Shown here: piece by piece, positions 387 to 47,633 of the stretch
How the letters are laid out: each line of letters opens with the position of its first letter
How positions within the stretch are numbered: position 1 is the stretch's first letter
Program-made: the position numbers and the translations under genes
Virus record (IMG/VR): IMGVR_UViG_3300037993_001242
Span: 64,001 to 128,000 of that record
Reading direction: 5' to 3' (one strand)
From: a virus
DNA: 64,000 nt
The notes under the pieces: model-generated
Told to the model about the DNA's origin: nothing
Database searches by the model: none
Seen by the model: only the letters and a program-made list of their open reading frames with translations

Positions 387-520
387 ATAACGGGCAAGGA
401 TCGGCGTGGATGTTTTTAGCGCTCTACCGTTGAGCTATCCCGGCATTGGAGCCGGGAACAGGACTCGAACCTGTATCTCCTCATTAGCATTGAGATAACC
501 CACAACACTTCGGCCCGTTA
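387..520 (-). ncRNA. Y RNA (YrlA-like) with circularly permuted tRNA module
   Basis: Terminal stem TAACGGGC(C)GA/TTGCCCGTTA with bulged C; inside, T arm, acceptor 3' strand-T-CCA, AT linker, acceptor 5' strand, D arm. Confidence 0.85.
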
Positions 521-6333: not shown

Positions 6334-6846
6334 ATGAAAATCATTTACGCTATGGTTGTGGCTCTTGTCCTGACTGGCTGTGCAACTCAGCGGGGATTCC
6401 CGCCGAATAACGGCATCGGCAACTTTGACCGCTTGGACGACAAAGTCTATCGCGGCGCACAACCCTCGCACGAAGCCATTGCCAAACTGGCAAAAGCTGG
6501 CGTGACCAGAGTAATCAATCTCCGCCTGCCCGGCGATACGGCACCGTACGAAAAATCGGCGTGTCGGGCCGAAGGCATCGAATACTTCAACGTACCCATT
6601 GGTGGTTTTTCCGCTCCCACTGATGCCCAAGTACACCGGGTATTTTCTTTGATTGAGACCGCCCATGGGCCGGTCTACATCCATTGCCAGTGGGGCTGTG
6701 ACCGCACCGGAACCATGTGCGCCTGCTGGCGAATCCATCACGATGGCTGGAGCAATGCACAGGCACTACAGGAAGCCGTCATTTACGGCCTGTCACCTTG
6801 GGAACAGAGCATGAGGTACTACATCCTGCATTACCACGAAAAATAA
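6334..6846 (+). CDS. Lipoprotein Cys-based (dual-specificity/tyrosine) phosphatase
   Basis: Lipobox LVLTGC; CX5R loop HCQWGCDRTG. Confidence 0.85.
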   Translation: MKIIYAMVVALVLTGCATQRGFPPNNGIGNFDRLDDKVYRGAQPSHEAIAKLAKAGVTRVINLRLPGDTAPYEKSACRAEGIEYFNVPIGGFSAPTDAQVHRVFSLIETAHGPVYIHCQWGCDRTGTMCACWRIHHDGWSNAQALQEAVIYGLSPWEQSMRYYILHYHEK

Positions 6847-6932
6847 CGGGCAAGGTTTTGGCATCGGGTATGCTGGGTTTCCCCGGCGGTTTGTATCAAT
6901 AACAAGATAACCGACAGTCCATTCGGCCCGTA
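6843..6932 (-). ncRNA. Y RNA (short form, no tRNA module)
   Basis: Same terminal stem as 387-520 (ACGGGC(C)GAA...GGTTATCT...CCTTGCCCGT). Confidence 0.8.
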
Positions 6933-7016: not shown

Positions 7017-7457
7017 TTATTCTTCATCTGCTGATTCCCAGTTGTTGCAGCAACCGCCCCAAAAAATCGGGCCGGTTACTTCTTTGCAGGAGCCTTCGTC
7101 CTTGCCGCCGGAATAATACTCGCAGTTGCCACAATGTGTCGGCCCATCCTCGATGTATCCGACGGCTTCTTTGGGCAGCAACTCCAGTGGCGTCGCACCT
7201 TCTTTCAGGAAAGTTTTGCCCCCGATGAAGGCTGCGCACACGCCATGTTCACCATCACAAGCTGGCGGCGTTGTGACGAAGCACTCACTCTTGGGCGTGT
7301 TAAAGAATATGCACTTGCCACAACGCGCACCGGGATCGGTTTGACCGGATTTGTTGAGCATGTCCGGGGTCATGTATACAACCTGTGCTTGGAGCATTTT
7401 GCCATCTTCGGCTTCATGCTCTTGCAGTCCCATCACCCGGCGCAAAATCGGATTCAT
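7017..7457 (-). CDS. Tandem HiPIP-like (4-Cys) protein
   Basis: Two CxxC...C...C units; second is CGNCEYY...C...GGCCNNW; GTATTTA-N4-ATG. Confidence 0.6.
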   Translation of the reverse strand: MNPILRRVMGLQEHEAEDGKMLQAQVVYMTPDMLNKSGQTDPGARCGKCIFFNTPKSECFVTTPPACDGEHGVCAAFIGGKTFLKEGATPLELLPKEAVGYIEDGPTHCGNCEYYSGGKDEGSCKEVTGPIFWGGCCNNWESADEE

Positions 7458-7474
7458 GCCCTAAATACCGGTCT

Positions 7475-7514
7475 GAAAATAGAAGGCCGGGGGGCTTCCA
7501 CGCTCCCCGGCCTA
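7475..7514 (-). terminator. Intrinsic terminator
   Basis: AGGCCGGGG/CCCCGGCCT stem followed by TCTATTTT. Confidence 0.65.
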
Positions 7515-7520
7515 AGTTTT

Positions 7521-7730
7521 ATACCAAGGCGTTTTTGAACTTTGATCGCCAACAGCCTGCTGTCCTTAGCTTAATCCCGGCGCTTTACCGCTGAGCTACA
7601 CCGCCATAGTTTTATGGGGGCGGTGACTGGATTTGAACCAGCGACTCCGGTTTGTTAGACAACACCTGTCAGGTCACGTCTTGCTATTGTGTAACGCACT
7701 AGGTGCGCTACGGTTGAGCCTTCGGGTGAT
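7521..7730 (-). ncRNA. Long Y RNA (YrlA-like) with permuted tRNA module
   Basis: ACC(C)GA/TTGGT bulged helix; T arm-CACCGCC-C-CCA, 9-nt linker, GGCGGTG, D arm; long extended stem. Confidence 0.72.
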
Positions 7731-7818
7731 AGCCTGACATTGAACTTTAATTTTAACCATCACCTTGAGCTTGGGCGAGCGGCCCGTAAAATCAATTTAC
7801 AGGCCGCCGCACCCGAAA

Positions 7819-8031
7819 TTATGGTTTGCCCTCCAGTTGTTTCAGCCGTTCTTTATAGATTTTTTCAATCTCGCTTTCCCTTATACCCCGAAGATTGCGG
7901 CCACCGGCATTCATACACGTCGCGTGCTCTTGCGTATTCGTGGTCAGCCTCTGCGCTTTTTCCATTTCAGCACGCCGCCACACGTCCAGTCTGCGTTTTG
8001 CGCTTTCGTCCATAAGACTATTTGTTGCCAC
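7819..8031 (-). CDS. Small charged hypothetical protein
   Basis: Overlaps the stop region of the upstream gene. Confidence 0.45.
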   Translation of the reverse strand: MATNSLMDESAKRRLDVWRRAEMEKAQRLTTNTQEHATCMNAGGRNLRGIRESEIEKIYKERLKQLEGKP

Positions 8032-8782
8032 TGAACACGAAGCTCAGCAACTGCTTGCCGATCTTCTTGGTCAGGTCGACTTCTTCGTCGTTGGCCCGTG
8101 AGCGCGCCCGGCGGACGGCTCGCGTCAGGATTTCGATCCGGTCGAGCAGTTCGGCTTTTTCCGCCGGGGTGATCAACGAAGACCACTCCTTTTCCTCAAC
8201 CTTGCCTACCGGCACATCGATGGCCAGCAACTGAGTCTGAGCCGGATGTTCCTTGGTGGCGTCGTACAGCACAATCGGCTTGGACTGTTTCTGCGTGCGA
8301 ATCTTGATCACTTCGCGTGCTTTGTAAACACCAGCGCCGCGCTGCGCATCCGCCACGAAACCCTTGGCCGGATCGAGCGTCGGGATGACCGCGATCAACT
8401 GCTGGATTTCCGTGCAGCGCTTTTCAAGCTCCAGCAGCGCCGTCGCCGGGACATCCTTAATTAGCACGGTACCCGCGTCGTCATCAAGCACGATGTCGGC
8501 CTTCGCCCGTGTATTGGCGTCAGCCACCTGATACGAGGCGTCGAGTGCCTTGGTCAGATGACCCTGAATCCATGTCAGTTCCTTGCCGACCGAGGTCTGC
8601 AAGAAGGACTGGGCTTCGGTCTGCGGCTCGGCTTTTTCCGCGTCGGGTTTGAAGACGACGTGCTTTTCCTCGAAAAGATGCCGCTTCTTTTCAAAGGTGT
8701 TGGCCTGATCGGTGCGGCACTTTTCGGCCTGCTGTTTCAGGCTGGTTTCAACTGCCAAAAGTTCATGTAGTTTGGTTGACAT
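8018..8782 (-). CDS. Conserved-looking large-phage hypothetical protein
   Basis: 254-aa helical ORF behind a sigma70 promoter. Confidence 0.8.
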   Translation of the reverse strand: MSTKLHELLAVETSLKQQAEKCRTDQANTFEKKRHLFEEKHVVFKPDAEKAEPQTEAQSFLQTSVGKELTWIQGHLTKALDASYQVADANTRAKADIVLDDDAGTVLIKDVPATALLELEKRCTEIQQLIAVIPTLDPAKGFVADAQRGAGVYKAREVIKIRTQKQSKPIVLYDATKEHPAQTQLLAIDVPVGKVEEKEWSSLITPAEKAELLDRIEILTRAVRRARSRANDEEVDLTKKIGKQLLSFVFSGNK

Positions 8783-47559: not shown

Positions 47560-47633
47560 TGGCGCTTCCGACGGGGATCGAACCCGCGTGCTCCGTTTTA
47601 GAGACGAATGCCTTGCCACTAGGCTACGGAAGC
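47560..47633 (-). tRNA. Amber suppressor tRNA (anticodon CUA)
   Basis: 74-nt cloverleaf, TTCGT-CT-CTA-AA-ACGGA, G73-CCA, canonical T-loop. Confidence 0.9.

What the first reader, a model, noticed from the sequence alone, without database searches (positions are those of the whole stretch)
7521..7730. Third, extended Y RNA with permuted tRNA module and C73-CCA
Seen: T arm GCTGG-TTCAAAT-CCAGT, CACCGCC-C-CCA, 9-nt linker TAAAACTAT, GGCGGTG and D arm with GG. The anticodon position continues as a long stem (CCGG/CCGG, TGTTGTC/GACAGCA, CC(T)GACAG/CTGTTGG) to a terminal ACC(C)GA/TTGGT bulged helix. That helix keeps the Ro-site geometry of the other two elements with different base pairs, i.e. covariation. 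An intrinsic terminator follows. An alternative pairing with upstream TGTCAGG (7733-7739) suggests a conformational switch.
Basis: partly seen in the sequence, partly recalled or inferred. Interest (0 to 1): 0.8.

Follow-up and report, generated by a model that had tools for sequence, protein, structure and literature searches.

The report
Phage tRNA-mimic RNA with built-in CCA

Summary
The window lies in a 199-kb phage record that carries about 40 tRNAs, a tmRNA, a Ro60 gene and several canonical Y RNAs.

Eleven orthologous loci were aligned, all just downstream of a DUF7873 gene. A twelfth, diverged copy lies unannotated in the cultured Rhizobium phage RHph_Y65.
- **Supported by covariation:** T arm, 7-bp acceptor stem, D arm, a 4-bp anticodon-stem equivalent and two rod helices. 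93% of cells pair, 25 of 33 pairs show compensatory changes, and 0 of 500 shuffles match this.
- **Acceptor loop:** N73-CCA is invariant, U-1 is present in 10 of 11, and the linker varies from 3 to 76 nt. This fits RNase P cleavage into a two-piece RNA, as shown for M. smegmatis YrlA.
- **True extent:** about 7476-7818 on the minus strand, including a conserved 5' domain and a terminator with a conserved loop.

Each strand has another, covarying partner. The proposed switch pairing exists only in the window's own clade.

Ro60 binding remains open. Rfam YrlA scores 27 bits against a cut-off of 69, the window lacks the Ro motif, and one complete phage carrying the RNA has no Ro60. I class it as a new variant of the YrlA kind.

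The parts
7476..7818 (-). Whole conserved non-coding RNA, about 340 nt, from the leader just after the stop codon of the upstream ORF to the terminator U-tract
   Evidence: 97% identical to L054, against 79-87% for flanking genes. Alignable in 11 loci.
7810..7818 (-). Leader UUUCGGGUG, the 5' strand of helix P1 that closes the 5' domain
   Evidence: Invariant in 10 orthologs. RNAalifold pairs it with CACCCGAAG. The G004 ortholog shows 3 compensatory pairs.
7775..7809 (-). Hairpin H1 of the 5' domain
   Evidence: A hairpin sits at this position in every ortholog with a different sequence.
7729..7772 (-). A/U-rich stretch with repeated YUCARG motifs, including CAAGGUGA and UCAGGCUAU
   Evidence: Motifs recur in all orthologs. 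Function unknown. No conserved reading frame, read directly from the sequence.
7720..7728 (-). CACCCGAAG, the 3' strand of P1.
   Evidence: Part of the invariant block GGCUAUCACCCGAAGGCUCAA.
7691..7711 (-). Clade-specific hairpin GUAGCGCAC-CUA-GUGCGUUAC
   Evidence: One compensatory pair in L176. Absent in L177, L178, L179, L182, L184, L186 and L187.
7676..7687 (-). P_out 5' strand AUAGCAAGACGU, the outermost helix of the rod
   Evidence: Pairs with 7532-7521. An equivalent 7-9 bp helix with a different sequence is found in all 10 orthologs tested.
7666..7673 (-). Rod helix 1, 5' strand CC(U)GACAG
   Evidence: Helix 1: 5 of 6 pairs show compensatory change.
7658..7664 (-). Rod helix 2, 5' strand UGUUGUC
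   Evidence: Helix 2: 6 of 7 pairs show compensatory change. L177, for example, has GAUACCG/CGGUAUC.
7647..7650 (-). Anticodon-stem equivalent, 5'-side strand CCGG
   Evidence: 100% paired. Variants are CCGG/CCGG, CCGA/UCGG and CCAA/UUGG.
7626..7642 (-). T arm GCUGG-UUCAAAU-CCAGU
   Evidence: 100% paired, with compensatory changes in 2 pairs.
7619..7625 (-). Acceptor stem, 3' strand CACCGCC
   Evidence: 7 of 7 pairs in 11 of 11 orthologs; 6 of 7 pairs show compensatory change.
7615..7618 (-). C73 plus CCA
   Evidence: CCA is invariant in 11 of 11. N73 is C in 8 and U in 3.
7606..7614 (-). Linker UAAAACUAU ending in U-1; the predicted RNase P site is between 7606 and 7605
   Evidence: Linker length is 3-76 nt across orthologs, and U-1 is present in 10 of 11. 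Cleavage itself is inferred, not shown.
7599..7605 (-). Acceptor stem, 5' strand GGCGGUG
7582..7596 (-). D arm GCUC-AGCGGUA-AAGC
   Evidence: The stem covaries (GCCU/AGGC, GUCC/GGAC, GCGA/UCGC). G18 and G19 are present in most orthologs.
7577..7580 (-). Anticodon-stem equivalent, 3'-side strand CCGG, followed by the conserved GAUYAA
7549..7564 (-). 3' strands of rod helices 2 (GACAGCA) and 1 (CUGUUGG)
7521..7532 (-). P_out 3' strand ACGCCUUGGUAU.
7476..7513 (-). Intrinsic terminator hairpin with the conserved loop GCGUGGAAGC, plus a U-rich tail
   Evidence: The stem covaries, and the loop is nearly invariant across orthologs.

Best explanation
Window 7476-7818 (minus strand) encodes a member of a previously undescribed family of phage non-coding RNAs. 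The family always sits just downstream of a DUF7873 gene.

**Architecture.** The core is a YrlA-type tRNA mimic: a complete tRNA elbow (T arm, 7-bp acceptor stem, D arm, 4-bp anticodon-stem stub) in circularly permuted order. It sits on an interrupted rod of three helices. A conserved 5' domain closed by helix P1 is added on one side, and a terminator hairpin with a conserved loop on the other.

**Likely processing (inferred, not shown).** The acceptor stem is closed by a loop that begins with invariant N73-CCA, ends with U-1, and has a freely variable middle. The most likely mechanism is therefore:
1. RNase P cuts 5' of G+1, between 7606 and 7605.
2. Exonucleases trim the linker back to CCA.
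3. The result is a two-piece, base-paired RNA with a free tRNA-like CCA end. This has been shown experimentally for M. smegmatis YrlA, which also has a 7-bp acceptor stem.

**Likely role (inferred).** It probably serves as a tRNA-shaped scaffold or decoy within the phage's translation and RNA-surveillance gene set. Its partner may be Ro60, DUF7873 or a tRNA-binding host factor.
For: **Conservation and structure**
- Conserved in 11 syntenic loci, and better than the flanking genes. A twelfth, diverged copy lies downstream of the DUF7873 homologue in the cultured Rhizobium phage RHph_Y65.
- Covariation: 93% paired, 25 of 33 pairs compensatory, 0 of 500 shuffles, slid controls 33-49%.
- P_out is present with a different sequence in all 10 orthologs tested. 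P1 has 3 compensatory pairs.

**Features expected of an RNase P substrate**
- 7 of 7 acceptor pairs and 5 of 5 T-stem pairs in 11 of 11.
- CCA invariant, while 6 of 7 acceptor pairs vary.
- U-1 in 10 of 11.
- Linker 3-76 nt, with a tandem-repeat insertion in L184.

**Comparison with known families**
- YrlA is the only Rfam family hit, consistently in the window and five orthologs at 27-37 bits.
- Precedent: M. smegmatis YrlA, with a 7-bp acceptor stem, is cut by RNase P and gains a CCA end in vivo; both halves were recovered with Rsr (PMC4201824).

**Genomic context**
- About 40 CCA-encoding tRNAs, a tmRNA, Ro60 and canonical Y RNAs lie on the same strand.
Against: - Transcription, cleavage and the CCA end are all inferred.
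- The Rfam YrlA score is far below the gathering cut-off: 27.4 against 69. A junction of two ordinary tRNAs scores 23.8.
- The single-sequence folding energy is not better than shuffles.
- In the window, the minimum-energy fold of the long transcript prefers the competing upstream hairpin.
- P1 rests on one diverged ortholog. An alternative partner, GGUGA/UCACC, cannot be excluded.
- No function can be assigned to the 5' domain or to DUF7873.
Confidence: 0.6

Rival explanations
1. It is a true Y RNA: it binds the phage (or host) Ro60 ring and tethers it to another factor. The binding site is on the rod, near P_out, rather than at the helix the first reader proposed.
For: - It has the same overall topology as YrlA.
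- Four of five sufficiently complete phage records with the RNA also encode a TROVE protein: G000, G004, G007 and RHph_Y65.
- On the 5' strand of the rod, next to P_out, six of 11 orthologs carry NNCGAA. It reads GACGAA in three lineages. This resembles the GNCGAAN0-1G Ro motif of bacterial YrlA (PMC4201824).
Against: - The window itself reads GACGUG at that place.
- It lacks GGGC(C)GA/UUGCCC and GGUUAUC, which the phage's other Y RNAs share.
- The Rfam model aligns its Ro stem to an inner helix with no motif match.
- The element is 17 kb from the Ro60 gene and is linked instead to DUF7873.
- G006 (58.7 kb, rated 100% complete) has the RNA but no TROVE gene.
Confidence: 0.3
2. It is mainly a 3'-end processing and stability device for the upstream DUF7873 message. 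RNase P cutting at the tRNA-like module would leave the mRNA plus 5' domain ending in a protected, tRNA-like CCA end. This would resemble MALAT1/mascRNA or plant-virus tRNA-like structures.
For: - The conserved leader begins 0-9 nt after a stop codon in the main-clade loci, which leaves little room for a separate promoter.
- Linkage to DUF7873 holds down to 48% protein identity among the 11 aligned loci, and to 37% in RHph_Y65.
- The invariant CCA and U-1 fit this reading.
Against: - In the window, L176, L184 and G004, another small ORF lies between DUF7873 and the RNA.
- A -10-like hexamer overlaps the stop codon.
- The long covarying rod, the 5' domain and the conserved terminator loop are more than a cleavage signal needs.
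- This reading is compatible with the best explanation rather than exclusive of it.
Confidence: 0.2
3. It is a decoy or sponge. A tRNA look-alike with a CCA end would soak up host factors that act on tRNA acceptor ends, such as tRNA-targeting defence toxins or tRNA-modifying and processing enzymes. The YUCARG repeats would bind a further protein.
For: - It is a full tRNA elbow and acceptor with CCA but no anticodon loop.
- The phage invests heavily in its own tRNAs, which suggests conflict over the host tRNA pool.
- A repeated short motif lies in an apparently unstructured stretch.
Against: This is purely inferential. No defence or counter-defence gene was identified next to the element, and no partner is known.
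Confidence: 0.12
4. It is a decaying relic of two adjacent tRNA genes or a rearranged tRNA, with no function of its own.
For: - Every tRNA gene of this phage encodes CCA, so a tRNA-dimer origin is plausible (also discussed in bioRxiv 10.1101/312249).
- Ordinary tRNA junctions give weak YrlA hits.
Against: - The two acceptor strands are perfectly complementary in 11 of 11 orthologs despite changes at 6 of 7 pairs.
- There is no anticodon loop.
- The element is more conserved than the neighbouring genes.
Confidence: 0.01
5. It is a permuted (two-piece) tmRNA gene, or a permuted tRNA gene that matures into a working tRNA.
For: - The gene order, T arm, acceptor 3' strand, NCCA, spacer, acceptor 5' strand, is that of permuted tmRNA and permuted tRNA genes.
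- Orthologs give weak Rfam hits to tmRNA models.
Against: - There is no G3-U70 and no A73: the acceptor is G1-C72, G2-C71, C3-G70 with C73.
- There is no tag reading frame, read directly from the sequence.
- ARAGORN finds a separate standard tmRNA and does not call this element.
- The tmRNA_permuted model scores 16.9 bits against a cut-off of 47.
- The anticodon position is an open covarying rod, not a loop.
Confidence: 0.02

Closest known systems
YrlA of Mycobacterium smegmatis (Chen et al. 2014, PMC4201824)
   Same: - Circularly permuted tRNA-like module with a 7-bp acceptor stem closed by a loop.
- That RNA is cut by RNase P and ends in CCA in vivo, giving two halves that stay together. The same outcome is predicted here.
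   Different: - There, CA is added after cleavage. Here the whole N73-CCA is genome-encoded and invariant.
- That RNA lies next to rsr and binds Rsr through a GNCGAA motif. This one lies next to DUF7873, 17 kb from the Ro60 gene, and the window lacks the motif.
- This RNA is about three times longer, with an extra 5' domain and a longer rod.
YrlA of Salmonella Typhimurium (Rfam RF02553; structure PDB 6cu1, bioRxiv 10.1101/312249)
   Same: The elbow is formed by T and D arms, the acceptor is closed by a loop, and the anticodon stem continues into the stem formed by the RNA's ends.
   Different: - Salmonella YrlA has a 6-bp acceptor stem and is not cut by RNase P.
- Its D- and T-stem nucleotides are conserved. 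In this family the D stem covaries freely.
- The Rfam score here is 27 bits against a cut-off of 69.
The phage's own canonical Y RNAs (genome 54382-54516; window 388-517 and 6847-6930)
   Same: - Same strand and same tRNA array.
- Window 388-517 also has a permuted tRNA module with U73-CCA and U-1.
   Different: - Those share GGGC(C)GA...GGUUAUC...UUGCCC and follow directly after tRNA 3' ends. The finding has none of these motifs.
- The finding has its own terminator and 5' domain.
Two-piece (permuted) tmRNA
   Same: The gene order is permuted, with NCCA followed by an excised spacer of variable length. The mature RNA is held together by the acceptor stem.
   Different: This RNA has no G3-U70/A73 alanine identity, no tag frame and no pseudoknots. 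Unlike tmRNA, it has a real D stem.
mascRNA/MALAT1 and viral tRNA-like structures
   Same: A tRNA-like fold is embedded in a longer transcript and recognised by tRNA-processing enzymes. A CCA-type end is produced.
   Different: Those are eukaryotic or RNA-virus systems and are not permuted. Here both halves probably remain paired.

Membership tests
YrlA (Rfam RF02553) | Score at or above the curated gathering threshold (69 bits) | tested here: not met
   27.4 bits in the window and 26.7-36.6 bits in five orthologs. An ordinary tRNA-tRNA junction scores 23.8.
YrlA (Chen et al. 2014) | tRNA-like module in the order T arm, closed acceptor stem, D arm, with the anticodon stem continuing into the RNA's terminal stem | tested here: met
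   All four helices are supported by covariation on 10 orthologs.
YrlA (Chen et al. 2014) | Ro60-binding motif GNCGAAN0-1G on the 5' strand of the terminal stem | tested here: not met
   The window reads GACGUG. Three other lineages read GACGAA and six of 11 orthologs have NNCGAA, so the ancestor may have had the motif. The Rfam alignment places its Ro stem on an inner helix without the motif.
YrlA (Chen et al. 2014) | Gene adjacent to the Ro60 (rsr) gene | tested here: not met
   The Ro60 ORF is at genome 52.6-54.3 kb and the element at 71.5-71.8 kb. The element is always downstream of DUF7873. G006 has no TROVE gene.
Y RNA (any) | Physical binding to Ro60 | not testable with these tools
   This needs a gel-shift or co-immunoprecipitation assay.
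Canonical Y RNAs of this phage | Terminal helix GGGC(C)GA/UUGCCC and the GGUUAUC box | tested here: not met
   The motif search finds it at genome 54516-54382, window 517-391 and window 6930-6847, but not in 7476-7818.
Bacterial RNase P substrate (tRNA-like) | 7-bp acceptor stacked on a 5-bp T stem, a T loop/D loop elbow, 3' NCCA, and U at -1 | tested here: met
   All of these sequence features are present and conserved. Cleavage itself was not tested.
Permuted (two-piece) tmRNA | G3-U70 with A73, a tag reading frame, and a model hit | tested here: not met
   The acceptor has C3-G70 with C73. There is no open frame. tmRNA_permuted scores 16.9 bits against 47 in an ortholog. ARAGORN does not call the element.
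Permuted tRNA genes (Cyanidioschyzon type) | An anticodon loop restored after excision at a bulge-helix-bulge in the extended anticodon stem | tested here: not met
   No anticodon loop sequence is conserved. The position is a covarying rod of three helices.

The most novel reading that the evidence does not exclude
The family is a phage-encoded, two-piece tRNA surrogate. After RNase P cleavage, its genome-encoded CCA end would be charged or otherwise used by tRNA-handling machinery. The neighbouring DUF7873 protein would be its dedicated partner. Together they would form a new phage RNA-protein module acting on host translation or on tRNA-directed defence, independent of Ro60.
Probability: 0.15. 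Interest if true: 0.85.

Novelty: new variant of a known kind. Interest (0 to 1): 0.6.

Why it matters
YrlA-type Y RNAs are the only described bacterial RNAs that mimic a whole tRNA in permuted order, and what their tRNA-like half does is still unknown.

This family keeps that half under strong selection. It adds an invariant encoded CCA and a variable, probably excised spacer, and it has moved away from the Ro60 gene to a different conserved neighbour, DUF7873. That separates the tRNA-mimic function from Ro60 linkage. It also suggests that a free CCA end matters.

A diverged copy lies unannotated in a cultured Rhizobium phage (RHph_Y65). End mapping, RNase P cleavage, charging and partner identification could therefore be tested at the bench.

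Tried and rejected
**Searches for relatives that found nothing**
- A BLAST search of cultured phages with the element returned only tRNA-tRNA junctions and the known YrlA next to the Ro60 gene of mycobacteriophage Whirlwind.
- Exact-pattern scans of IMG/VR with acceptor-specific or D-arm-specific patterns found nothing.
- A protein-based locus search with DUF7873 in IMG/VR found nothing.
- The five closest Ro60-bearing phages gave no DNA match. G004 later proved to hold a diverged copy.

**Searches that returned noise**
- The metagenome pattern scan returned mostly unrelated YrlA-like modules and tandem tRNAs, with no further ortholog.
- The 18-mer scan of 185,579 prokaryote genomes gave 15 hits. 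All lack the leader and none has the tRNA module, and the number is within chance expectation.

**Analyses with no result**
- DUF7873 has no PHROG, no PDB sequence match and no convincing fold match. Foldseek against PDB and BFVD gave E > 0.001, and VIA-align gave a best Z of 7.7 on helical hairpins only. No paper mentions it.
- RtcB and CCA-adding enzyme families were not found in the 82%-complete record.
- Comparison of the two halves with the phage's own tRNAs gave no clear parent; the script's 3'-half scores were unreliable.

**Readings considered and rejected**
- A small ORF in the 5' domain: the frames differ between orthologs.
- A CsrA-type sponge: the repeats are not GGA motifs.

Full report
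**Context.** The window is bases 64001-128000 of a 199,098-bp IMG/VR virus record rated 82% complete. Its minus strand carries about 40 tRNA genes and a tmRNA. Every tRNA gene encodes its CCA, usually followed by UUUU or AUUU. A 580-aa TROVE/Ro60 ORF lies at genome 52.6-54.3 kb.

The Rfam YrlA model gives sub-threshold hits:
- 39.9 bits next to that ORF.
- 35.9 bits at window 388-517.
- 27.4 bits at the finding (7546-7672).
- 23.8 bits at a plain tRNA-Ile/tRNA-Phe junction.

Three elements share the helix CGGGC(C)GA/UUGCCCG: genome 54516-54382, window 517-391 and window 6930-6847.

**The observation.** This covers the T arm, CACCGCC-C-CCA, the 9-nt linker, GGCGGUG, the D arm, and the stems CCGG/CCGG, UGUUGUC/GACAGCA and CC(U)GACAG/CUGUUGG. 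A 12-bp terminator follows. UGUCAGG at 7739-7733 can pair with CCUGACA, and does so in the minimum-energy fold of the long transcript. Folding energies of the single sequence are not better than shuffles. The case therefore rests on comparison with relatives.

**Relatives.** Close homologues of the flanking proteins led to syntenic contigs.
- In L054, the 350 nt between the DUF7873 gene and the next gene are 97% identical to window 7470-7821. The surrounding genes are 79-87% identical. The few differences include two double, pair-preserving changes in the acceptor stem.
- Further copies lie downstream of DUF7873 in L176, L177, L178, L179 (L180 and L181 are identical), L182 (L183 is identical) and L184.
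- An 18-mer from the invariant block found two more in IMG/VR: L186 in G006 and L187 in G007.
- A diverged copy follows DUF7873 in G004. tblastn confirms DUF7873 upstream in all three records, at 48-64% identity.
- In the cultured Rhizobium phage RHph_Y65, the 37%-identical DUF7873 homologue sits in a tRNA array. It is followed by an unannotated 454-nt gap holding the same module: CUCGCCA-C-CCA, a 21-nt linker and UGGCGAG. It scores 36.2 bits to YrlA.

**Structure.** RNAalifold on ten orthologs predicts the acceptor, T, D and anticodon-stub helices and two rod helices.
- On that structure, 93% of cells pair and 25 of 33 pairs show compensatory change.
- No shuffle out of 500 reaches any measure, and sliding the partners by 1-3 columns drops pairing to 33-49%.
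- Single-sequence folds and duplex tests show a further outer helix in all ten. It has unrelated sequences, for example AUAUCGGG/CCCGGUAU, GUGACAGG/CCUGUUAC and UAAGCGAA/UUCGCUUA.
- In the window this outer helix is 7687-7676 with 7532-7521.
- Upstream, the leader UUUCGGGUG (7818-7810) pairs with CACCCGAAG (7728-7720). The G004 copy keeps the helix through three double changes.

The RNA therefore has a 5' domain, a rod, a tRNA head and a terminator. The terminator stem covaries while its loop GCGUGGAAGC is nearly invariant.

The proposed terminal helix ACC(C)GA/UUGGU uses two segments that each have a better-supported partner. The 5' motif never changes, while the 3' segment changes freely and tracks the outer-helix 5' strand. 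The motif-to-3'-segment duplex is weak in L177, L178, L184, L186 and L187. This is a coincidence in the window's clade, not covariation.

The 'switch' hairpin is strong in that clade (-14.5 kcal/mol, shuffle p about 0.03-0.05). It is at chance level in L178, L182, L184, L186 and L187.

**The acceptor loop.** Across 11 orthologs the acceptor stem always has 7 pairs, although 6 of the 7 vary. N73 is C or U, CCA never changes, and the base before G+1 is U in 10. The linker ranges from 3 nt (L186) to 76 nt with tandem repeats (L184).

A 7-bp acceptor on a 5-bp T stem, NCCA and U-1 are the recognised determinants of bacterial RNase P (established knowledge). M. smegmatis YrlA, the one YrlA with a 7-bp acceptor, is cut by RNase P and carries CCA in vivo; both halves were recovered with Rsr (PMC4201824). 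I therefore infer cleavage between 7606 and 7605 and a two-piece mature RNA. This step is not shown.

**Is it a Y RNA?** The evidence is mixed.
- *For.* YrlA is the only Rfam family hit in the window and five orthologs. Four of five sufficiently complete records with the RNA encode a TROVE protein. Several lineages carry GACGAA on the rod near the outer helix, resembling the GNCGAA Ro motif.
- *Against.* All scores are far below the cut-off. The model's Ro stem aligns to an inner helix. The window reads GACGUG. The phage's own Ro helix and GGUUAUC box are absent. The D stem is not conserved in sequence. The conserved neighbour is DUF7873, not the Ro60 gene. G006, rated complete at 58.7 kb, has no TROVE gene.

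I therefore call it YrlA-like in architecture and leave Ro60 binding open, at about 0.3.

**Other readings.**
- A relic of tandem tRNAs is excluded as a present-day description by the conservation and covariation. A tRNA-dimer origin, as proposed for YrlA, remains plausible.
- A permuted tmRNA or tRNA gene is excluded by C3-G70/C73, the lack of a tag frame, and the rod in place of an anticodon loop.
- A role as the 3' end of the DUF7873 message, or as a decoy for tRNA-acting factors, cannot be separated from the main reading without experiments.

**Limits.** No expression data could be obtained. DUF7873 has no recognisable fold or annotation. The family was not found in prokaryote genomes by exact pattern, and its hosts apart from Rhizobium are unknown.

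Noticed in passing
window 47560-47633 (-): ARAGORN and Rfam both call a tRNA with anticodon CUA (61.5 bits in Rfam). It is a possible amber suppressor, which raises the question of TAG reassignment or suppression in this phage.
   Followed up: no
window 388-517 (-) and 6847-6930 (-); genome 54382-54516 (-): Canonical Y RNA-like elements share CGGGC(C)GA/UUGCCCG and follow directly after tRNA 3' ends (CCA-UUUUA). The one at 388-517 has a permuted tRNA head with U73-CCA-AU. The one next to the Ro60 gene has G-CAA-AU. ARAGORN miscalls 447-514 as tRNA-Ser.
   Followed up: partly
window 8018-8782 (-) and homologues: DUF7873 (254 aa) has more than 1,400 close homologues. It is followed by this RNA in all 11 aligned loci (down to 48% identity) and in RHph_Y65 (37%). 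The confident AlphaFold model (pLDDT 91.6) has no informative fold match.
   Followed up: partly
window 7819-8031 (-): A 70-aa ORF sits between DUF7873 and the RNA in the window. L176 has a 60-aa ORF at this place and L054 has none. The RNA leader starts right after its stop codon.
   Followed up: no
L184:1500-1590: The spacer between CCA and the acceptor 5' strand is expanded to 76 nt by short tandem repeats (CUAAAGU and CAGCCUU units). The spacer evidently tolerates any content.
   Followed up: partly
window 7484-7513 (-) and orthologs: The terminator stem covaries, but its loop GCGUGGAAGC (GCGUGAUAGC in some) is nearly invariant. This is unusual for a plain intrinsic terminator.
   Followed up: no
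window 7729-7772 (-) and orthologs: There are five to seven YUCARG repeats (for example GCUCAAGG, GUUCAAUG, GUCAGGCU) in the 5' domain, and UCAAAG/UUCAAAA on the 3' side of the rod. They may form a protein-binding platform.
   Followed up: no
window 7017-7457 (-): The 146-aa ORF downstream of the RNA has homologues with weak HiPIP (PF01355) hits. In some relatives it is preceded by two other ORFs instead of the RNA (L049-L053).
   Followed up: partly
window 6334-6846 (+): A dual-specificity protein phosphatase (PTP-NADK/DSPc families) is encoded on the opposite strand, in the middle of the minus-strand tRNA array.
   Followed up: no
genome 55346-55771 (-), outside the window: ARAGORN calls a phage tmRNA with an unusually long predicted tag of 33 residues ending in LAVA.
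   Followed up: no
L205:2257-2710 (MN988525.1 about 134,206-134,659): Rhizobium phage RHph_Y65 has an unannotated gap holding a diverged copy of this RNA. A TROVE-like 529-aa ORF lies about 5 kb downstream, at 139.8-140.5 kb.
   Followed up: partly
loci L056-L175 (metagenome scan): Among several dozen YrlA-like permuted modules from metagenomes, a minority also begin the acceptor loop with NCCA (for example L079, L081, L090, L129, L133). Retained CCA therefore recurs outside this family.
   Followed up: partly
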